A stretch of DNA of 64,000 nucleotides from an uncultured Candidatus Saccharibacteria bacterium. GTDB lineage: Bacteria; Patescibacteriota; Minisyncoccia; Phycocordibacterales; CAIZLB01. The stretch lies in contig CAZFOD010000004.1 in NCBI GenBank assembly GCA_964520545.1, positions 4,844 through 68,843 of the forward strand, in the 5' to 3' direction. Below the pieces are notes generated by a model. That model ran no database searches. It worked only from the letters and a program-made list of their open reading frames with translations, and was not told the origin of the DNA. Made by a program: the position numbers and the translations under genes. Shown here piece by piece: positions 1,418 through 59,398 of this stretch. Every line of letters starts with the position of its first letter. Within the stretch, counting starts at the first letter, position 1.

Positions 1418-2065
1418 TTATTTAGTAATATTAACGTACCTTTCACAATCAGCTTTTTCCGTTACATCTAATATCTCTCCGCACAAGGAAATATCTCTGG
1501 TCTCCATTGCAATCCCTTTGTAACATTGACCTATGTAATGTTCAGATTTAATTTTCGTGCCACATATTAGAACTTTCTGTTCATTAATAGCTTTATTTGT
1601 ATAACATATATCTCTTCCGACATTATCTCCAACATTTTCACAAATATCCTGCTGGGGATTTTTTTGTAAAAAAGCAGAGTAACATGATCCTCTTGTAAGC
1701 GAGGATTCAGAAATTTGTTGGCATATGTCTATATTTTTTGCCGATACAGCAACCCCCAAAAGACAACCTTCTTTATGATTTGCAGATAAAATAATATTAC
1801 TACATATACCAGGATTCTTAAGTTGAGCTGCAACTTGAGAATAACATTGGTCTACCAGATCGGTCTGCGATGGACCAGTGATATGTGGTCCAATCATCAG
1901 TATTTTTCCACAAATAGCAGGGTTACTTTTTTGAACAGCAATTGATGAGACAGAGCCAACTTCCGCTTCTCTATCTATGAGATAATAATTACTTTTCACA
2001 AATCCATATGTACCGAGAAATATAGTTCCCAATACAACAACAGATAAACAGATAAATTTTTTCAT
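1418..2065 (-). CDS. secreted cysteine-rich repeat protein (hypothetical)
   Basis: N-terminal signal peptide MKKFICLSVVVLGTIFLGTYG; about six 25-aa repeats, each with an IC..I and a C(Y) motif (12 Cys in total). Confidence 0.55.
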   Translation of the reverse strand: MKKFICLSVVVLGTIFLGTYGFVKSNYYLIDREAEVGSVSSIAVQKSNPAICGKILMIGPHITGPSQTDLVDQCYSQVAAQLKNPGICSNIILSANHKEGCLLGVAVSAKNIDICQQISESSLTRGSCYSAFLQKNPQQDICENVGDNVGRDICYTNKAINEQKVLICGTKIKSEHYIGQCYKGIAMETRDISLCGEILDVTEKADCERYVNITK

Positions 2066-4868: not shown

Positions 4869-5258
4869 ATGAACTACTACACAGATGTGATTAAAAAATA
4901 TGCAGCATTCACCGGCCGAGCTACTCGGAAGGAATACTGGATGTTCTTTCTCATAAACGCTCTCATAGGAATCACACTTAATCTGGTGGAGGGAGATGTT
5001 GGCAATATGGGATTAATATCAGCCATATACAGCTTAGCTTTGCTTACTCCATCAATCGCTGTTGCCGTGAGACGACTTCACGACACTGGAAGAAGTGGCT
5101 GGTGGCTTTTGATTGGAATATTTCCTCTGATTGGAGGCATTATCCTCATATATTTCCTTGTGCAAGATAGTGAAGCTGGAACAAATATATATGGAGCTAG
5201 GCCTTCTAGCCCAAGCGATATGATTCCACCTCCTACAGAAACTACACCGACAAATTAA
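4869..5258 (+). CDS. DUF805 family inner-membrane protein (YhaH-like)
   Basis: Motifs GRATRKEYW and RRLHDTGRSGWW with 3-4 TM segments are hallmarks of DUF805. Confidence 0.8.
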   Translation: MNYYTDVIKKYAAFTGRATRKEYWMFFLINALIGITLNLVEGDVGNMGLISAIYSLALLTPSIAVAVRRLHDTGRSGWWLLIGIFPLIGGIILIYFLVQDSEAGTNIYGARPSSPSDMIPPPTETTPTN

Positions 5259-5271
5259 TACTTAAAAGAAG

Positions 5272-5300
5272 ACCGCGTGGCGCACAAAGCACCACGCGGT
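5272..5300. terminator. bidirectional hairpin terminator; copy 1 of the repeated hairpin accgcgtggcgcacaaagcaccacgcggt
   Basis: Perfect 9-bp stem with a T-run on the plus strand and an A-run upstream; lies between convergent genes 4869..5258 and 5313..6005. A near-identical hairpin recurs at 6668-6696. Confidence 0.6.
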
Positions 5301-5312
5301 TTTTCCATTTGC

Positions 5313-6005
5313 TCATGACCACAAAAGATGATGTTCAGCAGCCCTGCCAGTTCTAACGAGATCTACCACACGGCTGAATTGATCTTGGTCAGTTCTGAAA
5401 TCAATGCCGAACTTTAAAAGTGCAGAACTCACTTCCTCGATCCGGTGTAATGTGTCACGGTGGACCTTGCAGAAACGATCCGGATCATTCACCAAATGAC
5501 CCTCGAGCGCATACATCTGGGCGATGAGGGCAAACTCCTCCTTACGGATTTCAGAAAGAATGTGAGTGACAAAGTCGACCACTAACATCTTCCACACAGT
5601 GGAACTAATTCCCTCCCCAGACTCTCTTGCCCAGGGCGATTCGATGCCTCGTGCAGCAGTCTTAAGCGCTTCGACATCGTTCCGTAGGTCGTAGTAAGCA
5701 ACGAGCCTATCCCACTTGTTTCGTCCGTACCCAAGGTAAAGAATTCCTCCCACGCCAAAGGCGAGAAATGCCCCAGTACCCAGAGTCTGAACAATCGCAA
5801 AGACGATAACGGAAACGACTAGTGCGAAAACGGAAAGGACTTTTCCGATTTGATAGAGGAGCTCCGCATCCTCAAGTTCGGTCAACGAGTGACGAACCTT
5901 TTGTTGCCCCATCCACAGATTGAAGAGTGACCTACTGTCACCCGCAAGGTTCGCTTCCGTTAAGAACGGCTTTTCAACCGCAGTAATTTCGGTATCTGAA
6001 CTCAT
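5313..6005 (-). CDS. 2-TM membrane protein, paralog A (hypothetical)
   Basis: 230 aa: N-terminal region of about 55 aa, a TM hairpin, then a C-terminal domain of about 120 aa. Distant paralog of 6714..7370 (shared KWDRLVAYYDLR / KKYDTLLYDTRQ, DPDRF/DPDRY and LLKFGIDF / LKKFGLQL). Confidence 0.6.
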   Translation of the reverse strand: MSSDTEITAVEKPFLTEANLAGDSRSLFNLWMGQQKVRHSLTELEDAELLYQIGKVLSVFALVVSVIVFAIVQTLGTGAFLAFGVGGILYLGYGRNKWDRLVAYYDLRNDVEALKTAARGIESPWARESGEGISSTVWKMLVVDFVTHILSEIRKEEFALIAQMYALEGHLVNDPDRFCKVHRDTLHRIEEVSSALLKFGIDFRTDQDQFSRVVDLVRTGRAAEHHLLWS

Positions 6006-6092
6006 ACATGTACCTTTCTAGCCCACTTGGGGCACGTTGTTACGGTTGAACTGAGATGATCAGTTAGGTTTTAATCTAAACCAAACTATACC
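6006..6092 (-). promoter_or_regulatory. conserved 5' leader copy 1 (-10 TATAGT through RBS GAAAGG), with -35 TTGACT at 6107-6112
   Basis: Block of about 85 nt that is about 90% identical to 7371-7456. Contains the -10 (revcomp of 6085-6090), the conserved small hairpin gccccaagtgggc and the RBS immediately before ATG 6005. Confidence 0.55.
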
Positions 6093-6120
6093 CCTCGACA
6101 CTCAGGAGTCAATAATTGAA

Positions 6121-6152
6121 AAAGCGCTCCGTGTACCTGCCCGGAGCGCTTT
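6121..6152 (-). terminator. intrinsic terminator after the zinc-ribbon gene
   Basis: aaagcgctccg/cggagcgcttt 11-bp stem followed by a T-run on the minus strand. Confidence 0.55.
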
Positions 6153-6391
6153 CAAGGTTTAGTGTTTGGTGCTTTTGGTACAGTGAATGCACGAATCCCC
6201 TGGAAAATCTTTGCGCCCCGTATAGGGACATCGTCAGATTTTCGCTCGCAAACATGGCATTTGTCACCTTTATTGTAAGCACTGAGAATGGTGGGACAGT
6301 TTTCACCTCCACACCGCCTTCGTACTCCTTTTCGGTGATTTGTTTTTTTTCTTCTTGAACGCTTTGCGTTCGGCTGACTTGTTTCAGGCAT
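6152..6391 (-). CDS. small basic zinc-ribbon protein (hypothetical; CX4C...CX2C)
   Basis: MPETSQPNAKRSRRKKTNHRKGVRRRCGGENCPTILSAYNKGDKCHVCERK: Lys/Arg-rich N-terminus plus a four-Cys ribbon. Alternative TTG start at 6433 abuts the stop of the upstream small gene. Confidence 0.4.
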   Translation of the reverse strand: MPETSQPNAKRSRRKKTNHRKGVRRRCGGENCPTILSAYNKGDKCHVCERKSDDVPIRGAKIFQGIRAFTVPKAPNTKP

Positions 6392-6435
6392 ATGATCTGC
6401 AGAAATTCTAATCCAGGAATCTGTTTTTTGCAAAA

Positions 6436-6639
6436 TTAATATTCATTCGTTTCCGCATCTTTCTTTTCCAGCAAAATCTTTACCGCCTCAGCTTCCTTTA
6501 TGGCACCAATGTCTCGCTCAGTCTTTGTCTTCCCATCAGCACCAGGAGCAAATGATCTCATTGTCATGAGAAGTCCGATGATGAGTACTCCGAGCATGAG
6601 AATAATGAGGAGCATGAAGCCTGAATTATCTTTTTTCAT
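6436..6639 (-). CDS. small single-TM protein (hypothetical)
   Basis: MKKDNSGFMLLIILMLGVLIIGLLMTMRS... 67 aa from ATG 6639; the ORF track extends to 6717 across the upstream terminator, which is unlikely to be the real start. Confidence 0.35.
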   Translation of the reverse strand: MKKDNSGFMLLIILMLGVLIIGLLMTMRSFAPGADGKTKTERDIGAIKEAEAVKILLEKKDAETNEY

Positions 6640-6667
6640 ATATGTATATTGTATTACAAAAAAGAAA

Positions 6668-6696
6668 ACTGCGTGGCGCACAAGGCACCACGCAGT
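6668..6696 (-). terminator. hairpin terminator copy 2 (actgcgtggcgcacaaggcaccacgcagt)
   Basis: Near-identical to hairpin 5272-5300; lies 14 nt after the stop of 6714..7370, followed by a T-run on the minus strand. Confidence 0.6.
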
Positions 6697-6713
6697 CTTT
6701 TTCTTTTTGTGAG

Positions 6714-7370
6714 TCACACCTCACGCAAACGGTATTCCTCCTGGTCTGCGAGCTGGAGCCCGAACTTCTTTAGCGCCAAGTTCAGACTGTAATACCGATC
6801 ATCGAGGTTTACTAACTCTTTGAGCGGTTCACCGTTATACACATCGTCCCCACTATAACGATCAGGGTCAAGCCGGTAGGCATCGGCAATCGTCCCATCC
6901 AAGACGCGGATGAATGTTGCCGTGAGCCACTCCGAGAGCCACACCTCATGTGAACTCGAATCGCTCGGAGCATCAATTGCCGACAGAACACCGAACTCTC
7001 GAATCGCGTACCGTAACTGCCTTGTGTCGTAGAGCAGCGTGTCGTACTTCTTGATATCGGCATTTCTCCTCGCCGATTGAGAGAGCTCCCAATAGAAGAC
7101 GCAGGCCGAGGCGCAGATGATGAGGCAAATGAAGAACGCGTAAAGATTGGGTCCCTGATTGTAGGAGACAGCCGCCAGCATGCCGAAAATGGCGATGACA
7201 ATCTGGATAAACGTCAGACTTCTTTGCAACCCGCTGTGCTTGCTTCTTACCTTTTCCAGTGGTTCTTCAAAGCCCCCATTCCTTGCTTTCCACGCCGCGA
7301 ACAGAGTGACGTTTGGTCCCATTGTTATACCGAAGCGACGAATCGCTATTGGACTAGATGCATTTTGCAT
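6714..7370 (-). CDS. 2-TM membrane protein, paralog B (hypothetical)
   Basis: 218 aa with the same architecture as 5313..6005 and weak but clear sequence similarity in the C-terminal domain. Confidence 0.6.
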   Translation of the reverse strand: MQNASSPIAIRRFGITMGPNVTLFAAWKARNGGFEEPLEKVRSKHSGLQRSLTFIQIVIAIFGMLAAVSYNQGPNLYAFFICLIICASACVFYWELSQSARRNADIKKYDTLLYDTRQLRYAIREFGVLSAIDAPSDSSSHEVWLSEWLTATFIRVLDGTIADAYRLDPDRYSGDDVYNGEPLKELVNLDDRYYSLNLALKKFGLQLADQEEYRLREV

Positions 7371-7456
7371 AAGTTACCTTTCTAGCCCACTTGGGGCACG
7401 TTGTTATAGTTGAACTGAGAGGATCAGTTGGGTTTTGATCTAAGTTAAACTATACA
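7371..7456 (-). promoter_or_regulatory. conserved 5' leader copy 2 (-10 TATAGT at revcomp of 7449-7454; -35 TTGCTA at revcomp of 7471-7476)
   Basis: About 90% identical to 6006-6092, including the gccccaagtgggc hairpin and the GAAAGG RBS. Confidence 0.55.
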
Positions 7457-7596
7457 ACAAATGTACAATATAGCAAGTGTGAATTGACTTTGGAATAAAA
7501 AACCTCATAGTATGGCCTGAAAGGAGCTTTCTAAGGCACAACTGGTTCATTGGTTTCGAATTCCTCGACACCGCCAGCAACACTTAGATTGTCGCT

Positions 7597-8118
7597 ATGC
7601 TCTTCAAACAAAACATCGTAGTCTTCGGCGCTTTCCTCATCCTCTTGGGATTCGCCTTCCTCACGTTTCTCGCAATTGTCCACGGAAAACCTCCGCAAGG
7701 ACTCAAGGGAATGTTCGGCAGATTCATGCTTCTCTCATGCAGCTTCGTAAGCCTCACCACCATTGGCCTCGACATCGTCGGGAGCACGTGGCAGGCAAAG
7801 GTGGAGCTTCGTCCGATTGCCGAGCAGTTTGCAAAACCGCCAAAAACGAAGGCAGAACATCGAAACATTCTTTCGCAACGCGAAGTGCTGGACGATGTGA
7901 AGAAATTCGATCTCAACTTCAGCACGGAAGCCGTTGAGGGCACCGGGCTCGGAGGGACGTTCATCCCCTGGATGTTCGACGGCTTCAACACCATCGTCCG
8001 GGGTGTGTACGTCCATCCCCGAATCCTTCTGACGTGTATGATCCTTTGGTTCACGAGCACCATGTTCCTGTTCCTCGGAAACCACTACGGGGGTGGCGGA
8101 AAGAAAGCGGCACACTGA
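7597..8118 (+). CDS. membrane protein (hypothetical), GC-rich
   Basis: Hydrophobic N- and C-terminal segments. The plus-strand terminator at 8137-8170 supports this strand over the overlapping minus ORFs. Confidence 0.45.
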   Translation: MLFKQNIVVFGAFLILLGFAFLTFLAIVHGKPPQGLKGMFGRFMLLSCSFVSLTTIGLDIVGSTWQAKVELRPIAEQFAKPPKTKAEHRNILSQREVLDDVKKFDLNFSTEAVEGTGLGGTFIPWMFDGFNTIVRGVYVHPRILLTCMILWFTSTMFLFLGNHYGGGGKKAAH

Positions 8119-8136
8119 GAGTGCCGGTAGATATGA

Positions 8137-8170
8137 AAACGCGGGTTCCCCCTTGGGCACCCGCGTTTTT
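8137..8170 (+). terminator. intrinsic terminator
   Basis: aacgcgggt/acccgcgtt stem followed by TTTTTT. Confidence 0.55.
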
Positions 8171-8231: not shown

Positions 8232-8978
8232 ATGACATACATCATTCCAACACTCGCGGCTATCCTTTTCATCCTACTCATCAGTATCAAACAGATTAAT
8301 CAATATGAGAGAGGTGTTAAATTCATGTTGGGAAAATTTCGACACATCATGCAGCCTGGATGGAGACTTGTCTTCCCCATCGTTCAGTCATATCAGAAAG
8401 TAGATATCCGTACGAAAGCCGTAGATGTTCCAGATCAGAATGCGATCACAAGAGACAACGTAACAGTGAGCGTCAATGCTGTGATCTACTACAAAGTACT
8501 TGATGCAGCAAAAGCTATCATCGAAGTTGAAGATTTTAAATATGCGATTTCTCAGTACGCTCAGACAACAATGAGAAATATTGTTGGAGAAGCAACTCTT
8601 GATGAGCTTCTAGCTAACAGAGACAAGATTGCCGACAGAATTCGTGAAATTGTAGACAAAGAGACTGATGCATGGGGACTTAAGGTTCAAAATGTTGAAT
8701 TGAAAGATGTAAGCCTTCCCCCTCAGCTTGAGCGTACAATCAGTAAGCAAGCAGAAGCTGAACGAGAAAAGCGTGCAGTCATCATCACATCTGAAGGAGA
8801 ACTTGCTGCAGCAAACAACATGTCAAAGGCAGCTGAAATATTGGCGCAAACACCAGGAGCTCTACACTTGCGAACATTGCAGTCTATCAACGACATGTCT
8901 TCAGATCAATCAAACACAGTTGTATATATGGTTCCAGTTGAGGTATTGAAAGCGTTTGATGGGTTTGCGAAGAAATAG
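8232..8978 (+). CDS. SPFH/band-7 (stomatin/prohibitin-like) membrane protein
   Basis: N-terminal TM, then a typical SPFH core (YERGVKFMLGKF..., ...AEREKRAVIITSEGE...). Confidence 0.85.
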   Translation: MTYIIPTLAAILFILLISIKQINQYERGVKFMLGKFRHIMQPGWRLVFPIVQSYQKVDIRTKAVDVPDQNAITRDNVTVSVNAVIYYKVLDAAKAIIEVEDFKYAISQYAQTTMRNIVGEATLDELLANRDKIADRIREIVDKETDAWGLKVQNVELKDVSLPPQLERTISKQAEAEREKRAVIITSEGELAAANNMSKAAEILAQTPGALHLRTLQSINDMSSDQSNTVVYMVPVEVLKAFDGFAKK

Positions 8979-9041: not shown

Positions 9042-9665
9042 TCAGTCGACCAAAACCTGGTCATGAATGGGAACGGGATGTGGCTTACGTGCGGGCAAAT
9101 CGTCACCGCACATGCCGTGGAACTCAACAAAGCACACTTCACACACCCAGACTGGATAGATGCTTCCCCAGATGTTGAGCAATGCGACGCGAGTCGCTGG
9201 GTGGCTGCACCCCTCAATGGAACATTCGTGACTTCCAGGAATGAATGGGGACTTATCCTTGAATTCAAACAAGGTATGAAAGCCGCGGGGAAATGTCCGT
9301 TTCGCATAGAACTCAAGCTTCCAATCTGATTCGATCGCAAGTTCATCTGGCCGGAAGAATACGACGCGAGGACAATCTGTCCAAATTCGTTCTTCCAAAA
9401 TCCAATCGTGATTGGTACCCCCGAGCTCGGCTTCGTGCATTTGATCCCATTCGCGAACTACGGTTCCTTGATTGAACTGAATGTGACCAACCTCCCGGTG
9501 GAAGAAGACGGCGACGGTGTACCCATCACCTTCAATCTTTGAATCCGGATCGACGACGAGACCTTGGTATTGAGACCAATTCCCTGCTTCAGCCATGCTA
9601 ACTATCGATCCCTTGAGAATTGGCTGCGACTTTGAATCGAGGACAACATTTTCTTGAACTGACAT
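9042..9665 (-). CDS. hypothetical protein with C-terminal Cys/His cluster (putative Zn-binding), GC-rich
   Basis: 207 aa; C-terminus HECSIEGCSHP...VCEVCFVEFHGMCGDD. Confidence 0.45.
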   Translation of the reverse strand: MSVQENVVLDSKSQPILKGSIVSMAEAGNWSQYQGLVVDPDSKIEGDGYTVAVFFHREVGHIQFNQGTVVREWDQMHEAELGGTNHDWILEERIWTDCPRVVFFRPDELAIESDWKLEFYAKRTFPRGFHTLFEFKDKSPFIPGSHECSIEGCSHPATRVALLNIWGSIYPVWVCEVCFVEFHGMCGDDLPARKPHPVPIHDQVLVD

Positions 9666-9787: not shown

Positions 9788-10525
9788 TTACAGCTTCGCG
9801 TAAAGTAGTTTAAACACCCTTTTTTGAAACTCAGCAATCATTGGATTATCAATCGTCACTACAGTCTTTGAATTGTAATCAATAATTGCAACCTTGTTTC
9901 CGTAGATAATCTGCGACACATTTAATCCAAAAAGATCCTGATCGTTTGGTATGAATTTAATCTTTTTTCCAAGCTTCTTGATTGTTGTATTTCTACGAGA
10001 CGCCTCATCGGTAATGACATATCTCTCGAGTCCTTTGAAGTCTCGTTGATATCTGTAATCTTTCGGTAAAAACTTTTTACGTGCCAAACTAAGAGCTGAA
10101 CTATATCTGTAATACACATCATCTTTCTTAAGACTGTGAACGACATCAGAGAATGTTTCTCGTATCGCCTTGTCTCCTTCAGAAAATGTCACGAGAGGTT
10201 TCTTTCCTCTTGTTGAGTATGACTCATGCATTGCATGTATCTCAGAATTAAAATCATCCTCAAGTTCGGTAAACAATCTTTCTACCTTCTCTGGAGATTC
10301 GGCAACATATACCTTGTATTTTCCTTTCGGCATTACACTCACAAGTCCTCGATCAATAAGGGCAGGAAGCATTTTGTAGACTGTTGGGCGATGTAAGCCA
10401 ACCTTTCGTACAATGTCAGAAATTGATGCTGGGCCAGTCTCTAAAAGGGAAAGATATATAGAACTCTCTTCGGTAGTGAAGCCTAGCTTTTCTAATACAG
10501 TATTTTTTCTTTGCATCTTTTTCAT
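9788..10525 (-). CDS. TrmB-family transcriptional regulator
   Basis: HTH segment LEKLGFTTEESSIYLSLLETGPASISDIVRKVGLHRPTVYKML is typical of TrmB; probable start at MKKMQRKN (10525). Confidence 0.65.
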   Translation of the reverse strand: MKKMQRKNTVLEKLGFTTEESSIYLSLLETGPASISDIVRKVGLHRPTVYKMLPALIDRGLVSVMPKGKYKVYVAESPEKVERLFTELEDDFNSEIHAMHESYSTRGKKPLVTFSEGDKAIRETFSDVVHSLKKDDVYYRYSSALSLARKKFLPKDYRYQRDFKGLERYVITDEASRRNTTIKKLGKKIKFIPNDQDLFGLNVSQIIYGNKVAIIDYNSKTVVTIDNPMIAEFQKRVFKLLYAKL

Positions 10526-10687
10526 AGGTTGTATTCTTTTGTTACAACCTAATCCTACACAAGTATCCATATTTTGCAACGTATATCGGGTTTTCCACTC
10601 GTACTGCTACAACTTTGTCATATTTCCATACATGTAAACGCTACATCGCATATATTTAAAACAGAAAGGTAATTAACAACAACATAT

Positions 10688-11590
10688 ATGAACAAACAAC
10701 ATCTGCGGCTTCCCCTATTGGGTATCGGCCGCCACATGACACTTATGGTCAAAAAGGCCATTGGTATCATTCGCGAAGAAAGCCATGACCTCGTCGTTGA
10801 AGACAAGGTTGGGTACGACAAAGTCAAATGGGATTGCGTTACTGCCGGCGACAAACGCGCGCAAGAAATGTATCTCAAAGAGATCGCAAAGCACTTCCCG
10901 ACATTTGGGGTCATTGCAGAGGAAAAAGAATTAACGATTCCCTGCACCGACGCCAACTTCGACGTGCACTTCACCATTGATCCTCTTGACGGTACCAAGG
11001 CCTACGCGCGCAAACAATCACACGGCGTGAGCACAATGCTCGCCCTCGTCTGCGACGGAAAGATTGTTGCGGTGACAATCGGCGACGCAAACACTGGTGA
11101 AATCTACGAGTATGCCGCTGAGGATGCTCGAGGCGAAGTGGCAAGATGGCGCTTCGACAAGATGGAGAAACTGGAGCCCGACGTCGTAAGACCTCTGCAC
11201 CAGCAGTACGTGCTCCTTCTCGACAACCCACGCATCCAGCCACAAGTCGTCAAAGACATGGCTACACTCTTCCCTGCGGAAGGCGGGCTGTTCAAGGACT
11301 TTGAGATCCAAGGAGGTAGCATCGGTCTTCGATTCGCTCGTCTTTGGAAGGGCGAAATCGGCGGCATCATCCTTAGCCCTACGCACGACACACCCTGGGA
11401 TCTCATACCAGTACTCGGCATCAGCAAGCGTCTTGGATTCAAATTCTTCCGACTGGATCCGGCGACGAACACGTTCACTGAACGCGAACCAGAACTCACG
11501 AAGGTCATCGTAAAGAAACCCTTCGTCGAGCTCATCATCCACGAAACACATGTGCCAGAGTTCAAAGCCTGGCTCGCTGGTAACAATTAA
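10688..11590 (+). CDS. inositol monophosphatase family protein (SuhB/CysQ-like)
   Basis: Motifs D.VT..D...E, EE, FTIDPLDGTKAY and PWDLIPVLGI match the IMPase signatures. GC-rich segment. Confidence 0.65.
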   Translation: MNKQHLRLPLLGIGRHMTLMVKKAIGIIREESHDLVVEDKVGYDKVKWDCVTAGDKRAQEMYLKEIAKHFPTFGVIAEEKELTIPCTDANFDVHFTIDPLDGTKAYARKQSHGVSTMLALVCDGKIVAVTIGDANTGEIYEYAAEDARGEVARWRFDKMEKLEPDVVRPLHQQYVLLLDNPRIQPQVVKDMATLFPAEGGLFKDFEIQGGSIGLRFARLWKGEIGGIILSPTHDTPWDLIPVLGISKRLGFKFFRLDPATNTFTEREPELTKVIVKKPFVELIIHETHVPEFKAWLAGNN

Positions 11591-11600
11591 CAAAAAAACT

Positions 11601-12080
11601 ATGCGAAAGAAAGAAGTACTTGGGATTGACCTCGGAGACACAATCTTCGACAGGTCACTCTCACCAACACAACCGTTTCAAGATGCTTTACGTGTCATTA
11701 AACGGCTAACTGAAGAACGGTTCACTGCACCACATGTGCACATCGTCTCCAAAGTTAATACTGAACAGAAGCTCCGCGCCGAAGCACGCCTTGCAGAATA
11801 TGGATTCTTCGAGGCGACGGGTATCCCCGAAACAAATCTGCACTTCTGCGCTGAGCGTTCCGAAAAGGCGCCCATCTGTGAGAGGCTAGGAATCACGCAC
11901 TTCATCGACGACCGTGTCGAGGTGCTGTATCACCTCCTCAACATCGTCCCCCACTGCTACCTCTTCCGTGGCAACACGAAGAGAGAGCTGGATACTGACG
12001 AGCTGGAGTTCCAGCATGTCACGCAGCAGACGAGGGTTGTGAACAGTTGGCTCGACGTCGAGGAGCTGTTGTTGAAATAA
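11601..12080 (+). CDS. HAD-like hydrolase (putative nucleotidase-like), weak assignment
   Basis: Start GIDLGDTIF and C-terminal GITHFIDDR resemble HAD motifs I and IV, but motif I is degenerate. Confidence 0.35.
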   Translation: MRKKEVLGIDLGDTIFDRSLSPTQPFQDALRVIKRLTEERFTAPHVHIVSKVNTEQKLRAEARLAEYGFFEATGIPETNLHFCAERSEKAPICERLGITHFIDDRVEVLYHLLNIVPHCYLFRGNTKRELDTDELEFQHVTQQTRVVNSWLDVEELLLK

Positions 12081-12090
12081 GTACAAATCA

Positions 12091-12125
12091 AAAGGGCCGC
12101 AGAGACAATGTCTCCGCGGCCCTTT
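12091..12125. terminator. GC-rich perfect palindrome hairpin (bidirectional terminator)
   Basis: aagggccgcagagaca/tgtctccgcggccctt. Confidence 0.6.
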
Positions 12126-12129
12126 AACT

Positions 12130-12486
12130 CTATTCCGGTAAACCGGGGATCTCGACGACCACCAGCTGTTCTGCATTCGTACGATTCCATCTCCTCCACT
12201 GAGTGCAGGGCAATCCGAATTCCAGGCCACCAATTTTTCGTGGTATCTGAATCATGAGAAACGGAATTCCGTCGTAAAGACTTACAATCCGGCCATCATA
12301 TTCGGTTCCAGCTCTGAGGAAGGTGTGCATTTTTTTGCACGAAGAGACTACCATTGGCTCCCCGCTCACGATTCTTACAGGGATGTCATATACTCGCTGA
12401 GGAACACCGCTTACCGGTGCTAAGGCTTGTGGGTTGGGCATATTCGATATTTGGTTGAGGTTGCAATCTGTATGTGATTTAAACAC
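12130..12486 (-). CDS. hypothetical protein
   Basis: 118-aa ORF bracketed by two related GC-rich hairpins; no recognisable motifs. Confidence 0.3.
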   Translation of the reverse strand: MFKSHTDCNLNQISNMPNPQALAPVSGVPQRVYDIPVRIVSGEPMVVSSCKKMHTFLRAGTEYDGRIVSLYDGIPFLMIQIPRKIGGLEFGLPCTQWRRWNRTNAEQLVVVEIPGLPE

Positions 12487-12508
12487 CTATGTCACATTGG
12501 GTCAAACT

Positions 12509-12544
12509 AAAAGGCCGCGGGTGACATTGCACCCGCGGCCTCTT
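12509..12544. terminator. GC-rich hairpin related to 12091-12125
   Basis: aggccgcgggtg/cacccgcggcct with loop acattg; shares the ggccgcgg core and loop with the previous hairpin. Confidence 0.55.
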
Positions 12545-12550
12545 CATCTT

Positions 12551-13564
12551 TTACAACCCCTCGATAGTAACCGTACTATCGCGTCGAAGAGCCAGCCATT
12601 GGCCCAACTGAAGACCATACTCGATTTTACGCTCGCCACTTGGATCGCGCATCATGAGGTAGGTGTGGGTTCCGTCACTGCATTTGCGGGCGAGATATCG
12701 CCCCGTTTTTAGCCTCAGCTCCAAACGAAGTCCCCTGTTGAATACCATCACCGCACCGACGACTCTGATTATCAAGTCATACTCGTAGGTATCGATATTA
12801 GGATCTTCTCCAGTTTGCTTCACAATCTGTCGCTTCTGGCGCTCTGCATCCACTCGAGCGTAGTTTTCCATCGTCTTCTGCTTACGCGCCTCATCTTTCT
12901 GCGTTCTTCTTTCCGCCTTCAACTTCTTTTCTGGAAGGCTCCTAAGAACACGTATGAGCCTAGCGCGCTGCCACTCGATCGTTTGCCTTTTTTGCACGGA
13001 TCGTAACACGGGAGTTCGCTGTTTCTTTCGTTCCTCAATCAGCTTTCTTGCTAATAACCTGGAAAGAGAACGCAGAAGCCTGGCGCGCTGCCACTCGATC
13101 GTTTGCTTCTTCGGCAATGGAGGAGGGGTTTTTACTTCCCTCTGCACGGGCGGTGCTTCAGGCGTAGTTACGCCTAACTTTTCCGAACCCTCGGCTGTGA
13201 GCAAAACCGCCAAGGAAACAATGAGCTCAACCCCATCATCAAACATGCTTGGGAAATTTTCCTCGTCATCATCTTCAGCGATGTCGATTCCACGAGCTGT
13301 TTCAGCCTTGAGCAAGGTTCCTTCATATTGAAGCCAGGCATACCACTCCTTCTTACCCACAACGACGTGGAGGAAGTCCGAAACGCTGTCTCCAATGCGT
13401 ACTTCGAACTTTTGATACACCTGCTTCGACTTCCAGGGCAGCTCGGAGTAACACTCCTTGCGACAGCAGCAAAGGTACACATACCCCGGCTGCAGCTCTA
13501 TGCCCTGCCTATACGCTTTCACCCTTTTGTCCATCGTACCCTCTGACGCTTTTAGCATACTCAT
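12551..13564 (-). CDS. hypothetical protein with internal tandem repeat (QTIEWQRARL[L/I]R, twice) and charged helical linker
   Basis: 337 aa, GC-rich. DNA direct repeat agcct.gcgcgctgccactcgatcgtttgc at about 12959 and 13079. Plus-strand alternative ORFs look like antisense artefacts. Confidence 0.5.
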   Translation of the reverse strand: MSMLKASEGTMDKRVKAYRQGIELQPGYVYLCCCRKECYSELPWKSKQVYQKFEVRIGDSVSDFLHVVVGKKEWYAWLQYEGTLLKAETARGIDIAEDDDEENFPSMFDDGVELIVSLAVLLTAEGSEKLGVTTPEAPPVQREVKTPPPLPKKQTIEWQRARLLRSLSRLLARKLIEERKKQRTPVLRSVQKRQTIEWQRARLIRVLRSLPEKKLKAERRTQKDEARKQKTMENYARVDAERQKRQIVKQTGEDPNIDTYEYDLIIRVVGAVMVFNRGLRLELRLKTGRYLARKCSDGTHTYLMMRDPSGERKIEYGLQLGQWLALRRDSTVTIEGL

Positions 13565-13755
13565 CGGATTTGGTCCTTTCTGGTCTGGTTTGTTGTTAGA
13601 TAACTGGTCTGTATGTATTTAACTCGTATTTTAGGATACCGTCAATCCTAGACGTGACATATATTTAAAATGATATAACCTATATAACCAGAGATGAACT
13701 CGGCAGCGATTCCATCGCAGATCGAGAGTGGAACGAAACATCAACAGATATTTAC

Positions 13756-14478
13756 ATGAACCAAGATGCCAGAACCATTCGGGAAGCATTACGCTTCCTG
13801 CTCCGTAACGCCTTCCTATATTTCTACGCGTGGGCAGGGGGGATTATCAGTATCCACAAGCAAACACTCCGGTCCATCGATCGAATCGTAAAGAACGGTG
13901 ATGCGATCATCGAAATCGGCTGTGGCAGAGGCTTCTTCACAAAAGCCCTGCATGAGAAAATGAGTCGGATGCACGACGTTACAATAACAGCATCAGACAT
14001 CAACCCAAAGGTTGTCGAACATGCCGCAAGGTATTGTGGCGCGGAATATTTCCCCCCAAGCGACGCCTTCTTCACCGAAGATAACAGCCTAGAAATCCGT
14101 CTAGCTAGTGCCACCAACATTGGCTCGACGGTAAGCAAAAAGGCAGATGTCATACTCTGCATCATGGTGGCCCACCACCTTAGCCACTGTGAAAGGCAGC
14201 AGATGATCAAAGGGATATATGAAGCACTGGGTCCCGGGCGGACAGCCCTGGTCGTGGATCACGGAAAGCCCAGTACCTGGTATGGAAAAATATTCTGGCT
14301 TCTCTTTCACCACCACTGCTTTGCAAATGGGTGCATTGAGTCCATTGAAGAGATGGCGGAGAAACAGGGATTCATCAATCGTATCTACTGGGAAACGCAG
14401 TTTGGATGGATTCATCATCTGACAATCCAAAGACCACTGAATGGGGTTCCCTCCGCAAAACAGGGACAAGCCAACTAA
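13756..14478 (+). CDS. class I SAM-dependent methyltransferase
   Basis: Motif I IIEIGCGRGFFTKAL and the downstream Rossmann-like pattern. Confidence 0.65.
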   Translation: MNQDARTIREALRFLLRNAFLYFYAWAGGIISIHKQTLRSIDRIVKNGDAIIEIGCGRGFFTKALHEKMSRMHDVTITASDINPKVVEHAARYCGAEYFPPSDAFFTEDNSLEIRLASATNIGSTVSKKADVILCIMVAHHLSHCERQQMIKGIYEALGPGRTALVVDHGKPSTWYGKIFWLLFHHHCFANGCIESIEEMAEKQGFINRIYWETQFGWIHHLTIQRPLNGVPSAKQGQAN

Positions 14479-14480
14479 AC

Positions 14481-14516
14481 GAAAGCGGCCACCGACAAAA
14501 TGTCAGTGGCCGCTTT
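14481..14516. terminator. bidirectional hairpin terminator
   Basis: aaagcggccac/gtggccgcttt. Confidence 0.55.
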
Positions 14517-14530
14517 AACGTTTGGAGATA

Positions 14531-15142
14531 TTAGTTTTCTGCAACGATAAGGAGGTTCGCCTTGGCTGCAGCCGTCTTTCCCCAACAAGGGGATGACGCT
14601 GACCATGGCTGTGTACCCTGCTCCTCATACAAGAGACGTCCGTACGCGAGGTTTCCCTCAACAGTGTAAAGATCATATCCAAGCTTCTGCGCACGTTTTA
14701 AGTGGTATCGCTCGTTGATCTGCATCACACCGACGTCCTTGGCGTTTACCCTTCCGCGCACAGTCTCGCCATTCTTATCGTACTGTCGAAACTGGGACTC
14801 ACATCTTGAGACTTCCGCCATTACGGGGATATCAGAGAAGTAGGCCCGAACCTTTGCCTCAATGCCGGCATTGGTAGGGATCGTTGAGCTTGCTGTCTTC
14901 TGTAAAGAAGTAGCAATCTCGACGGTCTGGGATTTAGCAATTTCCTGTTTTGAAAGTGTGTCTGTAGAGGTAGAAGTACCGTCTGACATCATTCCTGAAA
15001 CCATCATCGCTAAACCGAAGGTCAATGGTAAAATAAGCCTTTTCTTATCTAGTAATGCGCTCGTCCATTTCAGTAAATTTGAGCGCTTGCACCTAACTAA
15101 AAAAGCACATTGCTGTGCTTCTTTATGTCTATATACTAGCAC
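14531..15142 (-). CDS. lytic transglycosylase (SLT domain, IagB-like)
   Basis: CESQFRQYDKNGETVRGRVNAKDVGVMQINERYH...YTVEGNLAYGRLLY matches the family 1 lytic transglycosylase catalytic pattern (ES.F ... G[LV]MQI). Signal-peptide-like segment KKRLILPLTFGLAMMVSG; start uncertain. Confidence 0.55.
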   Translation of the reverse strand: MLVYRHKEAQQCAFLVRCKRSNLLKWTSALLDKKRLILPLTFGLAMMVSGMMSDGTSTSTDTLSKQEIAKSQTVEIATSLQKTASSTIPTNAGIEAKVRAYFSDIPVMAEVSRCESQFRQYDKNGETVRGRVNAKDVGVMQINERYHLKRAQKLGYDLYTVEGNLAYGRLLYEEQGTQPWSASSPCWGKTAAAKANLLIVAEN

Positions 15143-56872: not shown

Positions 56873-57541
56873 ATGACAAACAAAATGACTCTTAAGGCGT
56901 CTACTCGTTTTGTATTTGCTGCTGGTCTCATGACTACAGCTCTTGCAATCGCAGTTCTCCCTTCAATTACACGTGCAGATACCCTCTATCGACAGCTACA
57001 ACTTGGAATGTCTGGTGGCGATGTTTCAACACTTCAAACATTTCTTGCTAAAGATACTTCAATATATCCTCAGGGACTTGTGACAGGATACTTCGGATCA
57101 CTCACAAAGTCAGGTGTCGTGAATTTCCAGGTTAGAAATGGAATCTCTCCTGTTGGACGAGTTGGACCACAGACACTTGCTGTCATTAACTCACAAATGG
57201 GCGGCCTAGTTACAGGAAACGACCAGCGATCTCCAACGATTAGTGGTGTAAATCTAAATGTCTCAGCTTCAACAGCAACTGTTGCATGGAATACAGATGA
57301 AAATTCATCAGGTCTCTTGTACTACAGCACATCTCCACTTTCACTTAGTGAAGGAAGTGAGACAGCTGCGATTACGGTTTATGGAACTTCAGTAATTGCC
57401 AACATCAATCTTCAATCAATGCACAGCACTACTGTGACTGGTCTCCAGGCGAATACGACATACTACTACCTAGTATATTCTCGTGATAACGCTGGAAATG
57501 AAAGCATTTCATGGCCATCAACCTTCCGTACTTCAAACTAA
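56873..57541 (+). CDS. secreted peptidoglycan-binding domain + fibronectin type III-like domain protein (paralog 1)
   Basis: Signal peptide; PG_binding_1-like segment (LQLGMSGGDVSTLQTFLA...GYFGSLTKSGVVNFQVRNGISPVGRVGPQTLAVIN); FN3-like C-terminus (TATVAWNTDENSSG...TGLQANTTYYY). Confidence 0.65.
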   Translation: MTNKMTLKASTRFVFAAGLMTTALAIAVLPSITRADTLYRQLQLGMSGGDVSTLQTFLAKDTSIYPQGLVTGYFGSLTKSGVVNFQVRNGISPVGRVGPQTLAVINSQMGGLVTGNDQRSPTISGVNLNVSASTATVAWNTDENSSGLLYYSTSPLSLSEGSETAAITVYGTSVIANINLQSMHSTTVTGLQANTTYYYLVYSRDNAGNESISWPSTFRTSN

Positions 57542-57898
57542 ATACGGATACAGGTACAACAAAAGCCGACACGCGTCGGCTTTTTTGTTTGCACACTTTG
57601 CTTAGAAACCTAATCCGGCAAGTCTTAGAAGCCAAATGATGACGACAACGACTAGAACAATCTGTACTGGCTTTACAATCTGCGCTGGTAAAAGCGGAAG
57701 GAGGTAGGTATATATCACCCAAAGGACAACGATGACGAGGAGGATCTGTAATATCATGAGAATTTTAAATTAAATGGTTACCTCTAGATTGTACCACTAT
57801 ATAATTTTTAATTTACGTAGATTATACCCAATCTTAATGAAGATTAAGTAATTTTGATGAAAATTGTTAATAAATTTGTTATAGTGAAACTATACTCC

Positions 57899-59398
57899 AT
57901 GAGCATTAAAAGATACCTTTCTGTCATAGTCATCGTCGGTCTGCTTGTAAGCTTTTTGCCGACACAAAAAGCAGAGGCAGATACCGTAGTTGGCACTATT
58001 TCTGTTGGATATTTGCCTATAAGCATAGGTACGCTTGGAACTAAAGTTTATGTAGCCAATCTACTCCATGACTCTGTATCAATTATTGATACAGAGAACA
58101 ATAATACGGTTTCAACAATACAAGTTGGTGCCACTCCGTATGCAATAACAACACTGGGTCAAAAGGTGTATGTCGCAAACAACGGTGATGCGACAGTCTC
58201 AATCATTGATACTGCCAATAATAACGCAGTTACTTCAGTTAATGTTGAAAACAGCCCTTACTATATAACCGCATCAAGTACGAAAGTGTATGTGGTGAAT
58301 AATATTGGTAGTGTTTCGATAATTGATACCGCAAATAACAACGCAGTTACAAACATACCAGTTGGAGGGGGTCCTCAGGGTTTAGCTCTTTTGGGAACAA
58401 ATGTCTACGTTGTAGATTCCGCTGGCGGCACAGTTACAGTCATAGATACAGCAAATAACAACGCGACAACGACCGTAAACGTAGGGCAAGCACCCCTTGA
58501 CATCGTTACACTGGGTTCGAAAGTTTATGTGGTTGATAACAACGAAAATCGAATTTCAATTATCGACCCTGGCAATAACAACAATGTCACATCGGTAAAT
58601 GTCGGAAACAGTCCTAGCTACATTACAAAATTAGGAACAAAACTCTATGTAACAAACTATCTCGACAATACGGTCTCAATCATTGATACAGCAAACAATA
58701 ATGCGGTTTCAACTGTCTCAGTGGGCATTGGACCTCAAGCTATTTACGCATTTGGGACAAAAGTGTATGTAGCCAACGTCGATGGTACTGGAAATAAAGT
58801 TTCGATCATCGACACATCGGACGGGGATTCTGTATCTACCGTTACAGTTGGAGCCACGCCTCAAGCTTTTACTAGCCTTGGAACTAAAGTTTATGTAGTA
58901 AATATTAGCAGTAATAATGTTTCCATTATAGAAACAGCGCCTTCTCCAGCCGCCATTGGAGGCTTCTCTACTTCCTACTCCTATGATTATATAAATGGAA
59001 TTTTGACGACAACTACTGGAAACATGGTTTCAACAAGTTCAATTCCAAAAATACTCCCATTCGCTCAAACTCAAGCTACATCATCACCAGCCGTAGCTAC
59101 GACCACACCCCCTACTGTTCAGCCAACACCAGTTCCAGTTCAAGAAAAGTTTTCATTCCTCAAGGATCTTAAATACAAAGACATTGATACTGACGTGCTA
59201 AAGCTTCAACAGTTTCTAAACTCACATGGAGCAACGGTTTCAATTTCTGGTGCAGGATCTATTGGTAAAGAAACAACACTCTTCGGACCGGCAACTCGTG
59301 CTGCTTTGATTAAATTTCAGAAAGCTAATAACATCCGACCTTCAGTGGGATTCTTCGGTCCAATAACTAGAGGAATTGTAAACGCATTGTTACGTTAG
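57899..59398 (+). CDS. YVTN-family beta-propeller repeat surface protein with C-terminal peptidoglycan-binding domain
   Basis: About nine repeats of about 40 aa (KVYVAN..D.TVSIIDTANNN.V.TV.VG..P); C-terminus DVLKLQQFLNSHG...FGPATRAALIKFQKANNI matches PG_binding_1; signal peptide starts at M16. Confidence 0.7.
   Translation: MSIKRYLSVIVIVGLLVSFLPTQKAEADTVVGTISVGYLPISIGTLGTKVYVANLLHDSVSIIDTENNNTVSTIQVGATPYAITTLGQKVYVANNGDATVSIIDTANNNAVTSVNVENSPYYITASSTKVYVVNNIGSVSIIDTANNNAVTNIPVGGGPQGLALLGTNVYVVDSAGGTVTVIDTANNNATTTVNVGQAPLDIVTLGSKVYVVDNNENRISIIDPGNNNNVTSVNVGNSPSYITKLGTKLYVTNYLDNTVSIIDTANNNAVSTVSVGIGPQAIYAFGTKVYVANVDGTGNKVSIIDTSDGDSVSTVTVGATPQAFTSLGTKVYVVNISSNNVSIIETAPSPAAIGGFSTSYSYDYINGILTTTTGNMVSTSSIPKILPFAQTQATSSPAVATTTPPTVQPTPVPVQEKFSFLKDLKYKDIDTDVLKLQQFLNSHGATVSISGAGSIGKETTLFGPATRAALIKFQKANNIRPSVGFFGPITRGIVNALLR

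What the first reader, a model, noticed from the sequence alone, without database searches (positions are those of the whole stretch)
6006..6092. Conserved 75-85 nt 5' leader shared by two paralogs: candidate cis-regulatory RNA
Both leaders run from a TATAGT -10 to the RBS and differ at only a few positions (about 8 of 85), while the -35 regions and coding sequences differ. Strict conservation of a transcribed leader with a hairpin right before the SD suggests a riboregulator (riboswitch, RNA thermometer or target of an RNA/protein regulator) controlling potentially toxic membrane proteins.
Basis: partly seen in the sequence, partly recalled or inferred. Interest (0 to 1): 0.55.

Follow-up and report, generated by a model that had tools for sequence, protein, structure and literature searches.

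The report
Shared leader of duplicated gene module
Two neighbouring orphan membrane-protein genes in an uncultured Paceibacteria (candidate phyla radiation) genome share a near-identical promoter-leader and a near-identical terminator; this looks like a repeated expression module, one copy of which is missing in sister strains, and nothing points to a riboswitch.

Summary
On the minus strand, 6092-6006 and 7455-7371 are about 89-90% identical from the -10 box (TATAGT) to the start codon. The -35 regions and coding sequences are not alignable. There are only two copies in about 79 kb of this genome.

The leader is not the only shared part. The intrinsic terminators after both genes (5256-5304 and 6652-6700) are also 84% identical. 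The whole unit around gene A (6109-5259, 851 bp) is absent from two sister-lineage contigs.

Only four leader sequences from three lineages could be found in any collection. Both small hairpins are invariant, so covariation is zero. Folding energy is no better than shuffled sequence, the ribosome-binding site is not sequestered, and Rfam gives no match.

There is evidence of constraint. The leader changes about three times more slowly than synonymous sites, and substitutions avoid the hairpin stems.

The best reading is a repeated, self-contained expression module: a shared -10 box and 5' UTR plus a shared terminator, around two fast-evolving orphan genes for proteins with two membrane helices. 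It resembles phage morons and PeSL (promoter-early stem-loop) cassettes. A protein or RNA regulator site in the leader remains possible. A riboswitch or RNA thermometer is unlikely. Interest is modest.

The parts
6006..6092 (-). Conserved block A: -10 box plus the whole 5' UTR of gene A. This is the finding.
   Evidence: D3, 90% identical to copy B; covariance model, 98.9 bits.
6107..6112 (-). -35 hexamer TTGACT of unit A. It straddles the left junction of the insertion/deletion (TTG | ACT).
   Evidence: junction.
6085..6090 (-). -10 hexamer TATAGT of unit A. The inferred transcription start is about 6078-6076.
   Evidence: The start site is inferred and was not measured.
6049..6065 (-). Hairpin or palindrome 1 of leader A: AACTGA-TCATC-TCAGTT (6 bp stem, 5-nt loop).
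   Evidence: The stem is invariant in 4 sequences; the loop varies (TCATC, TCCTC, TTCTC).
6021..6033 (-). Hairpin 2 of leader A: GCCC-CAAGT-GGGC.
   Evidence: The stem is invariant; loop positions 2-3 vary (AA, GT, GC).
6013..6018 (-). Ribosome-binding site GAAAGG of gene A, 7 nt before the ATG at 6005.
   Evidence: Identical in all four leaders.
5313..6005 (-). Gene A: a 230-aa orphan protein with two membrane helices; GC3 (third-codon-position G+C) 0.51.
   Evidence: (no homologue among 5.8 billion proteins).
5256..5304 (-). Terminator block of unit A (stem 5300-5272). It is 84% identical to the terminator of unit B and abuts the stop codon of the convergent DUF805 gene.
   Evidence: (D6).
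5259..6109 (-). The whole A unit (851 bp): 19 nt, -10 box, leader, coding sequence and terminator. Present here, absent in sister-lineage contigs L111 and L112.
7371..7455 (-). Conserved block B: -10 box plus the 5' UTR of gene B.
   Evidence: 104.6 bits.
7471..7476 (-). -35 hexamer TTGCTA of unit B.
7449..7454 (-). -10 hexamer TATAGT of unit B.
7413..7429 (-). Hairpin or palindrome 1 of leader B: AACTGA-TCCTC-TCAGTT.
7385..7397 (-). Hairpin 2 of leader B: GCCC-CAAGT-GGGC.
7377..7382 (-). Ribosome-binding site GAAAGG of gene B, 6 nt before the ATG at 7370.
6714..7370 (-). Gene B: a 218-aa near-orphan protein with two membrane helices; GC3 0.61. Its only homologues are the sister-lineage orthologues, 62-65% identical.
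6652..6700 (-). Terminator block of unit B (stem 6699-6665).
   Evidence: (D6).

Best explanation
The 85-nt block is the -10 box plus the complete 5' UTR of a self-contained transcription unit. That unit occurs twice, 1.36 kb apart. Each copy has the same -10 box and 5' UTR in front and the same intrinsic terminator behind. Between these ends lie two orphan genes for proteins with two membrane helices, whose coding sequences can no longer be aligned.

One whole unit (A, 851 bp) is present in this genome and precisely absent in the sister lineage. The leader similarity is therefore the shared non-coding end of a repeated, moron-like expression module. It arose by duplication or insertion of the module, or by replacement of the gene inside it. 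It is then kept by ordinary purifying selection on expression signals.

Inferred mechanism: both genes are transcribed from TATAGT and start about 71-73 nt upstream of the ATG. Both mRNAs carry the same 5' end: hairpin 1, a CA-rich unstructured spacer, then hairpin 2 directly before an exposed GAAAGG with a 6-7-nt spacing. They would therefore share the same mRNA 5' structure and ribosome loading, and be expressed alike. Nothing indicates sensing of a ligand or of temperature.

Shown: the repeat, the conserved terminators, the insertion/deletion, the constraint and the invariant stems. Inferred: the transcription start, and the role of the hairpins in stability or translation.
For: - The leader pair is 90% identical and the terminator pair 84%, while the coding sequences are saturated (dN 0.83; BLASTP E = 0.64).
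- Each unit has its own promoter and its own terminator.
- The A unit (6109..5259) is missing in L111 and L112. In those contigs the terminator of the zinc-ribbon ORF lies about 10 nt from the DUF805 stop codon.
- A, B and neighbouring gene X have GC3 of 0.51-0.69, against 0.34-0.44 for core genes.
- Leader divergence between lineages is about 0.15, against dS of 0.36-1.09. Variable sites avoid both stems.
- B is a real, fast-evolving gene: dN/dS 0.26-0.29 and dN 0.28, the highest in the locus.
- There is no riboswitch-like anatomy: z = -0.4, no Rfam match, and the ribosome-binding site is not sequestered.
- Site patterns among A, B and B' are star-like (7, 3 and 7 private changes). The leader split is therefore about as old as the lineage split, while the coding sequences look far older, so the two have discordant histories.
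Against: - With only two copies in about 79 kb, 'module family' rests on n = 2.
- The direction of the event (insertion here or deletion in the sister lineage) cannot be determined without an outgroup.
- The 5' edge of the insertion/deletion lies 19 nt upstream of the edge of A/B similarity, so the unit boundaries are not identical.
- Stems that are perfectly invariant while both loops vary is more constraint than a generic UTR needs. It would fit a specific protein- or RNA-binding site equally well.
- There are no transcript data.
Confidence: 0.55

Rival explanations
1. The leader carries a specific binding site for a trans-acting regulator that co-regulates A and B. The site could act on DNA as an operator: the 6-N5-6 palindrome AACTGA-N5-TCAGTT lies about +13 to +29 from the inferred start, where a repressor could block transcription. 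It could also act on RNA, as hairpins bound by a protein or a small RNA.
For: - Both stems are strictly invariant in 4 sequences while both loops or spacers vary.
- The leader evolves about three times more slowly than synonymous sites.
- Candidate binding proteins are encoded nearby: a small basic zinc-ribbon ORF (6152-6433) between the two units, and a TrmB-family regulator (9788-10579).
Against: - The palindrome does not occur elsewhere in the window beyond chance: 5 matches found, 4.5 expected.
- There is no link between any regulator and the site.
- The TrmB gene is not next to the locus in L112.
- The neighbouring intergenic DNA is equally conserved (82-90%), so the constraint is not special to this block.
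Confidence: 0.2
2. The conserved leader and terminator are above all recombination substrates, as in a PeSL-like mobile cassette. Under this reading they are repeated homologous ends through which orphan genes are inserted, excised as circles or swapped between genomes.
For: - The whole A unit is an insertion/deletion between lineages, and its 3' end coincides with the end of A/B terminator similarity.
- The coding sequences and the flanks have discordant histories.
- The genes have atypical GC3.
- A precedent exists in T4-type phages (PMC2839356).
Against: - Only two copies were found in about 79 kb, and none in 80 related Paceibacteria loci.
- No recombinase, integrase or transposase was found among 40 window ORFs from 18-60 kb scanned with Pfam, the ORFs scanned in the first 18 kb, or the precomputed annotations around the locus.
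- The 5' boundary of the insertion/deletion does not coincide with the repeat, and no target-site duplication or terminal inverted repeats are present.
- B sits at the same place in both lineages.
Confidence: 0.15
3. The leader is a metabolite-sensing riboswitch or an RNA thermometer.
For: A conserved transcribed leader with a hairpin directly before the ribosome-binding site. Substitutions avoid the stems.
Against: - Two short independent hairpins (6 and 4 bp) with no junction or pseudoknot.
- Folding energy equal to shuffles.
- No helix sequestering the ribosome-binding site, no attenuator and little temperature dependence.
- No covariation and no Rfam match.
- The element is confined to two closely related lineages, in front of orphan genes with no metabolic link.
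Confidence: 0.04
4. The similarity is a neutral leftover of a recent duplication, and the shared sequence has no function of its own.
For: The terminators and the leader are both similar. The A unit is strain-specific.
Against: - The coding sequences between the conserved ends are saturated, which a recent neutral duplication cannot produce.
- The leader diverges about three times more slowly than synonymous sites between lineages.
- Variable sites are distributed non-randomly.
Confidence: 0.06

Closest known systems
PeSL (promoter-early stem-loop) regulatory cassettes of T4-type phages (Arbiol et al. 2010, PMC2839356)
   Same: Repeated short regulatory sequences (a sigma-70-type promoter plus a stem-loop terminator) bracket non-essential orphan genes. 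Insertions, deletions and replacements between close relatives map to them. The flanks are conserved while the enclosed genes are unrelated.
   Different: PeSLs are compact terminator-plus-promoter cassettes present in many copies in hyperplastic regions of a phage genome, and mini-circles have been demonstrated. Here there are only two copies in a cellular chromosome. The conserved 5' part is a 70-nt 5' UTR and does not include the -35/spacer part of the promoter. Terminator and promoter are not adjacent. No circles have been shown.
Phage morons (independent promoter-gene-terminator units; 'The moron comes of age', PMC3594210)
   Same: Unit A is an autonomous transcription unit with its own promoter and terminator and an atypical base composition. 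It sits between two genes in one genome and is absent at that spot in a close relative.
   Different: Morons are defined within phage or prophage genomes. No phage genes are seen here: the context is housekeeping genes. Morons do not usually share UTRs with each other.
Mycoplasma variable lipoprotein loci (vsp, vpma, vsa) with highly conserved 5' UTRs before divergent genes
   Same: Several neighbouring membrane or surface protein genes have nearly identical 5' non-coding regions and divergent coding regions.
   Different: Those loci have a site-specific recombinase, recombination sites within the conserved 5' region, usually a single active promoter, and a conserved signal peptide. Here each unit has its own promoter, the N-termini differ, the copies are direct repeats, and no recombinase lies nearby.
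Riboswitches and RNA thermometers
   Same: A conserved structured 5' UTR directly upstream of a ribosome-binding site.
   Different: No multi-helix aptamer, no expression platform, no covariation, no Rfam family, and no phylogenetic breadth.

Membership tests
Riboswitch | Match to a described aptamer family. | tested here: not met
   Rfam 15 at gathering threshold and at E <= 10: nothing on the leader strand.
Riboswitch | Conserved multi-helix aptamer supported by covariation. | tested here: inconclusive
   Only 4 sequences are available. The 11 predicted pairs are all invariant, with 0 compensatory changes. Only two short independent hairpins form; z = -0.4 against shuffles.
Riboswitch | Expression platform: an intrinsic terminator, or a helix that alternately sequesters the ribosome-binding site. 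| tested here: not met
   No U-tract follows either hairpin. The probability that the ribosome-binding site is unpaired is 0.39-0.59, and its pairing partners differ between copies.
Riboswitch | Broad distribution upstream of functionally related genes. | tested here: not met
   No match to the searched leader cores in GTDB genomes, JGI metagenomes or IMG/VR (exact-pattern scans), and absent from 80 Paceibacteria loci by HMM and covariance-model search. The downstream genes are orphans.
RNA thermometer | Ribosome-binding site or start codon paired in a temperature-labile hairpin. | tested here: not met
   GAAAGG lies outside both conserved hairpins. Predicted accessibility changes by 0.03-0.23 between 15 and 45 C, and the change is not conserved between copies. 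This is a prediction only.
PeSL-like mobile regulatory cassette | Repeated promoter and terminator sequences flanking orphan genes. | tested here: met
   The leader pair D3 and the terminator pair D6 flank orphan genes A and B.
PeSL-like mobile regulatory cassette | Many copies clustered in a plastic region of a phage genome. | tested here: not met
   Two copies in about 79 kb. The context is chromosomal housekeeping genes.
PeSL-like mobile regulatory cassette | Insertions/deletions between relatives bounded by the cassettes; excision circles. | tested here: inconclusive
   The 3' boundary of the A-unit insertion/deletion coincides with the end of the terminator repeat, but the 5' boundary lies 19 nt outside the leader repeat. 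Circles cannot be tested without reads.
Moron | Autonomous promoter-ORF-terminator unit, absent from a close relative, with atypical composition. | tested here: met
Moron | Located within a phage or prophage genome. | tested here: not met
   No phage structural or integration genes were found among the ORFs scanned with Pfam (most ORFs of at least 120 aa in the window) or in the precomputed annotations of the flanking contigs. For A and B themselves PHROGs gives nothing, and the L002 orthologue of B has only two weak hits to unknown-function families.
Site-specific phase-variation locus (Mycoplasma vsp/vpma type) | Recombinase gene next to the locus, and recombination sites within the conserved 5' UTRs, usually in inverted orientation. 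| tested here: not met
   No recombinase lies within about 10 kb on either side. The copies are direct repeats, each with its own promoter.

The most novel reading that the evidence does not exclude
The two units are the visible members of a family, specific to candidate phyla radiation bacteria, of mobile self-contained expression cassettes. In this reading the conserved 5' UTR and terminator ends act both as expression signals and as the homology through which fast-evolving orphan membrane-protein genes are inserted, lost and exchanged between Paceibacteria genomes. That would be a cellular counterpart of phage PeSL and moron shuffling.
Probability: 0.15. Interest if true: 0.55.

Novelty: new variant of a known kind. 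Interest (0 to 1): 0.3.

Why it matters
If the module reading is right, it gives a concrete, sequence-defined example of how an ultra-small symbiotic bacterium gains, loses and expresses lineage-specific orphan membrane proteins. These are the proteins most likely to mediate contact with a host or a phage. The gene arrives or leaves together with a ready-made promoter-proximal leader and terminator.

The case also carries a warning for scans that look for regulatory RNAs by finding conserved leaders. Near-identical 5' UTRs within one genome can come from modular duplication without any sensing RNA. Checking the 3' end and sister strains reveals this quickly.

As a candidate new regulatory RNA the finding is weak. 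The element is confined to two very close lineages and is structurally trivial.

Tried and rejected
1. Known RNA family. Rfam at gathering threshold and at E <= 10 gave only noise.

2. More copies by exact-pattern scans.
- Hairpin 2 plus ribosome-binding-site cores: 0 hits in viral, GTDB genome and JGI metagenome collections.
- Hairpin 1 core: 3 viral and 23 metagenome hits. Twenty-four match only the 18 specified bases, so they are chance. L099 and L107 also share TAGATTAAAACC, but they lie in ORF-poor DNA and lack the 3' half of the leader.
- Terminator core: 0 hits in the viral collection.

3. More copies through synteny. Eighty Paceibacteria loci around homologues of the SPFH (Band 7 family) gene at 8232-8978, which lies just upstream of the locus: no leader by nhmmer or covariance model, and synteny is poor.

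4. More copies in the same genome. The source contig and Logan contigs add 14.6 kb beyond the window ends, with no further copy.

5. Function of A and B.
- Pfam, PADLOC and NCBIfam gave nothing for A, B or the L002 orthologue of B, apart from one noise-level NCBIfam hit for A (MukE, E = 0.068). PHROGs gave two weak hits to unknown-function families for the L002 orthologue. The PDB sequence search gave nothing for A and two noise-level hits (E about 0.46) for the B profile.
- A full HMMER search of 1.84 billion representative proteins returned only repeat-like hits in long, unrelated proteins.
- The AlphaFold model of B was unusable (pLDDT 50), so no fold search was run.

6. Further operator sites. 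The palindrome does not occur elsewhere beyond chance.

7. IS200/IS605-type or other transposon ends. No terminal inverted repeats, no target-site duplication and no transposase were found, and the left boundary is not conserved between units.

8. Diversity-generating retroelement. Rejected, because the repeats are non-coding flanks and do not form a template/variable-region pair.

9. Cassette replacement inferred from elevated dS. B has dS of 1.07, but this falls within the locus range of 0.36-1.09, so it is not diagnostic.

10. Gene conversion between the A and B leaders. Site patterns are star-like and neither require nor exclude it.

Full report
**Observation**

The feature lies on the minus strand. 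ORF 5313-6005 (gene A, 230 aa) and ORF 6714-7370 (gene B, 218 aa) are each preceded by a sigma-70-type promoter: TTGACT-16-TATAGT for A and TTGCTA-16-TATAGT for B. From the G before TATAGT to the start codon, the two upstream regions (6092..6006 and 7455..7371) are nearly identical. The repeat finder reports 81 nt at 90%. My own count from GTATAGT through the start codon is 10 mismatches and one gap column in 88. One 32-nt run is identical. Upstream of the -10 box and downstream of the ATG the sequences are unrelated (A1). The conserved cores occur exactly twice in the window, with about 0 expected in shuffles, and nhmmer finds no weaker third copy.

The word 'paralogs' is only weakly justified. 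BLASTP gives E = 0.64 and hhalign gives E = 0.44, although the aligned C-terminal positions are collinear. Both proteins have the same layout: about 50 residues, two hydrophobic helices, then about 120 residues. Their global alignment scores 3-3.9 sd above zone-preserving shuffles.

**Anatomy of the leader**

Assuming transcription starts 7-9 nt after TATAGT, the 5' UTR is about 71-73 nt and contains, in order:
- hairpin 1, AACUGA-N5-UCAGUU;
- a CA-rich spacer;
- hairpin 2, GCCC-N5-GGGC;
- UA, the ribosome-binding site GAAAGG, and 6-7 nt to the AUG.

Neither copy folds better than its dinucleotide shuffles (z = -0.39 and -0.36). Neither hairpin is followed by a U-tract. The ribosome-binding site lies outside both conserved hairpins. 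When the first 30-35 coding nucleotides are included, its predicted accessibility is 0.39-0.59. Its pairing partners come from the non-homologous coding regions, and accessibility changes by only 0.03-0.23 between 15 and 45 C. Rfam 15 has no match at gathering threshold or at E <= 10.

**The leader is not the only shared part**

The repeat finder also returned the pair 5256-5304 and 6652-6700 (84%). These are the intrinsic terminators directly after the stop codons of A and B. One compensatory change is present (ACCGCG...CGCGGT against ACUGCG...CGCAGU), and the sister lineage has a G·U intermediate.

Each gene is therefore bracketed by the same 5' block (-10 box plus UTR) and the same 3' block (terminator). 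The coding sequences between them are saturated: dN = 0.83 and dS is not computable.

**Relatives**

- Gene A has no homologue among 5.8 billion clustered proteins.
- Gene B has one homologue cluster, at 62-65% identity.
- Exact-pattern scans for the leader or terminator cores found nothing real in IMG/VR, GTDB species representatives or JGI metagenomes.
- Eighty Paceibacteria loci, fetched through the highly conserved neighbouring SPFH (Band 7 family) gene, identify the organism as a Patescibacteria/Paceibacteria metagenome-assembled genome. None of them contains the leader, by HMM or by covariance model.
- About 14.6 kb of the same genome beyond the window ends adds no copy.

Three contigs of a sister lineage were recovered: L002 (ENA), L111 (JGI) and L112 (Logan). 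That gives four leader sequences from three lineages: A, B, and the B orthologues in L002 and L112.

**What the sister lineage shows**

1. In L111 and L112 the gene order is X, leader-B', terminator, small ORF, zinc-ribbon ORF with its terminator, then after about 10 nt the stop codon of the convergent DUF805 gene. The whole A unit (window 6109..5259, 851 bp) is absent. It comprises 19 nt, the -10 box, the leader, gene A and the terminator. Its left junction falls inside the -35 hexamer (TTG|ACT). Its right end coincides with the end of A/B terminator similarity and abuts the DUF805 stop codon. No target-site duplication or terminal inverted repeats are present. Without an outgroup, insertion here and deletion there cannot be told apart.

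2. Synonymous divergence between the two lineages is 0.36-1.09 across nine genes. Leader B against B' differs at 13% of sites (Jukes-Cantor distance about 0.15). The upstream intergenic region differs at 17% and the terminator region at 10%. The leader therefore evolves about three times more slowly than synonymous sites, but no more slowly than the other short intergenic segments of this compact genome.

3. All 11 predicted base pairs are invariant in the four sequences, so covariation is zero and uninformative. However, the 20 variable columns all fall outside the 20 stem columns, and both loops vary: TCATC, TCCTC and TTCTC in hairpin 1; CAAGT, CGTGT and CGCGT in hairpin 2. This gives P of about 0.0009, but the test is post hoc.

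4. Site patterns are star-like, with 7 changes private to A, 3 to B and 7 to B'. The A/B leader split is therefore about as deep as the lineage split. Over that same interval B and B' remain 62% identical in protein, whereas A and B are unalignable. The flanks and the coding sequences have discordant histories.

5. B is a genuine gene under purifying selection but evolving fast (dN/dS 0.26-0.29; dN 0.28, the highest in the locus). A, B and neighbouring gene X have GC3 of 0.51-0.69, against 0.34-0.44 for core genes.

**Interpretation**

The simplest account of all these points is a repeated, self-contained expression module: a shared -10 box and 5' UTR plus a shared terminator, around two lineage-specific orphan genes for proteins with two membrane helices. 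One module is variably present between close lineages. The leader is conserved because it is the module's functional 5' end, providing promoter -10 box, mRNA 5' structure, ribosome-binding site and spacing. I give this 0.55.

Three alternatives remain:
- The invariant 6-N5-6 palindrome or hairpin could be a specific regulator site on DNA or RNA (0.2). There are no extra sites in the window and no linked regulator.
- The conserved ends could serve mainly as recombination substrates for cassette exchange (0.15). Against this, there are only two copies, no recombinase was found in the Pfam scans or contig annotations, and the 5' boundaries do not match.
- A riboswitch or RNA thermometer is unlikely (0.04), for the anatomical reasons given above.

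**Comparison with known systems**

[quoted passage not shown] Unit A meets the structural definition of a moron: an autonomous promoter-gene-terminator unit with atypical composition that is absent in a close relative. It sits, however, in an ordinary chromosomal context of housekeeping genes. It is not a member of either family as they are defined.

Mycoplasma variable-lipoprotein loci share the 'identical 5' UTR, divergent gene' pattern. They depend on a site-specific recombinase, which is absent here (this comparison rests on my own knowledge).

**Limits**

- There are no transcript data.
- Only three lineages are available.
- The functions of A and B are unknown. Pfam, PADLOC, PHROGs, NCBIfam, the PDB and a full HMMER search were uninformative, and the AlphaFold model had pLDDT 50.
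- The rest of the genome could not be searched.

**Verdict**

Its conservation is that of a duplicated or inserted expression module, and the evidence does not point to a new sensing RNA. Interest is modest (0.3). The most novel reading that survives is a mobile orphan-gene cassette family in candidate phyla radiation bacteria, with probability of about 0.15.

Noticed in passing
window 5256-5304 and 6652-6700: The intrinsic terminators of genes A and B are a second repeat pair (84% identical). They show one compensatory stem change (C-G to U-A), and the sister lineage has a G·U intermediate.
   Followed up: yes
window 5259-6109, compared with L111:758-800 and L112:5015-5060: The entire A transcription unit (851 bp) is absent in two sister-lineage contigs. 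The junction lies inside the -35 hexamer on one side and at the DUF805 stop codon on the other. No target-site duplication is present.
   Followed up: yes
window 5313-8118 and 9042-9665 (GC3 measured for A, B and X only); window 10700-14800 (total G+C only): The orphan ORFs A, B and X have GC3 of 0.51-0.69, against 0.34-0.44 for the interleaved core genes (SPFH, DUF805, Lnb_N and the 67-aa ORF). ORF 9042-9665 and the block from 10.7 to 14.8 kb have total G+C of about 0.49-0.53, against about 0.38-0.44 for core genes. This suggests foreign origin or a distinct class of genes.
   Followed up: partly
window 6714-7370: The public gene call for B is 202 aa and starts 16 codons downstream. The conserved GAAAGG-N6-ATG at 7370, and the 220-aa call in L112, support the longer 218-aa form.
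   Followed up: yes
window 6152-6433: A small basic zinc-ribbon ORF (CxxxxC...CxxC) lies between the two units and has its own terminator (6110-6150). It is conserved in both lineages, is called at 79 aa in the ENA record and 69 aa in L112, and hits phrog_10853 (E = 1.6e-6). It could bind nucleic acid.
   Followed up: partly
window 6436-6660: The 67-aa membrane ORF starts 8 nt after a TACAAT box that directly follows the terminator of B, and has no ribosome-binding site. It may be a leaderless mRNA.
   Followed up: no
window 6021-6038 and 7385-7402: A five-codon mini-ORF, GTG CCC CAA GTG GGC TAG (MPQVG*), spans hairpin 2 and ends at the TAG just before the ribosome-binding site. In the sister lineage the third codon is CGT or CGC (Arg). 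It has no ribosome-binding site of its own, so it is probably coincidental.
   Followed up: partly
window 7531-8160: Long ORFs overlap on both strands. GC3 of 0.69 on the plus strand, against GC1 of 0.70 on the minus strand, shows that X (7597-8118, plus strand) is the real gene. Some public calls (L087, L113) annotate the minus-strand ORFs instead.
   Followed up: partly
L001, L003, L087, L114 and L115 (Logan contigs): Short-read contigs of this strain break inside the leader, within its 32-nt identical stretch. This is as expected for a repeat longer than the assembly k-mer.
   Followed up: yes
L099:9224-9265 and L107:10243-10284: Two metagenome contigs share TAGATTAAAACC plus the hairpin-1 core with leader A, separated by a 6-nt insertion. 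They lie in ORF-poor, eukaryote-like DNA and lack the 3' half of the leader. This is probably coincidence but was not explained.
   Followed up: partly
window 1418-2065, compared with L112:8218-8622: Between the DUF2914 gene and the PIF1 helicase gene, this genome has a 215-aa orphan ORF where the sister lineage has a NUDIX gene. This is another strain-specific gene replacement.
   Followed up: no
window 57854-59398 and 12907-13116: ORF 57854-59398 has internal repeats with a period of about 120 nt (a YNCE-like beta-propeller repeat protein with a peptidoglycan-binding domain). The orphan ORF 12551-13564 has a 120-nt tandem pair.
   Followed up: no
window 56873-57541 and 62111-62776: Two paralogous genes (PG_binding_1 plus Pur_ac_phosph_N domains) lie in inverted orientation, with 71-76% DNA identity and about 4.6-5.3 kb between the aligned arms.
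   Followed up: no
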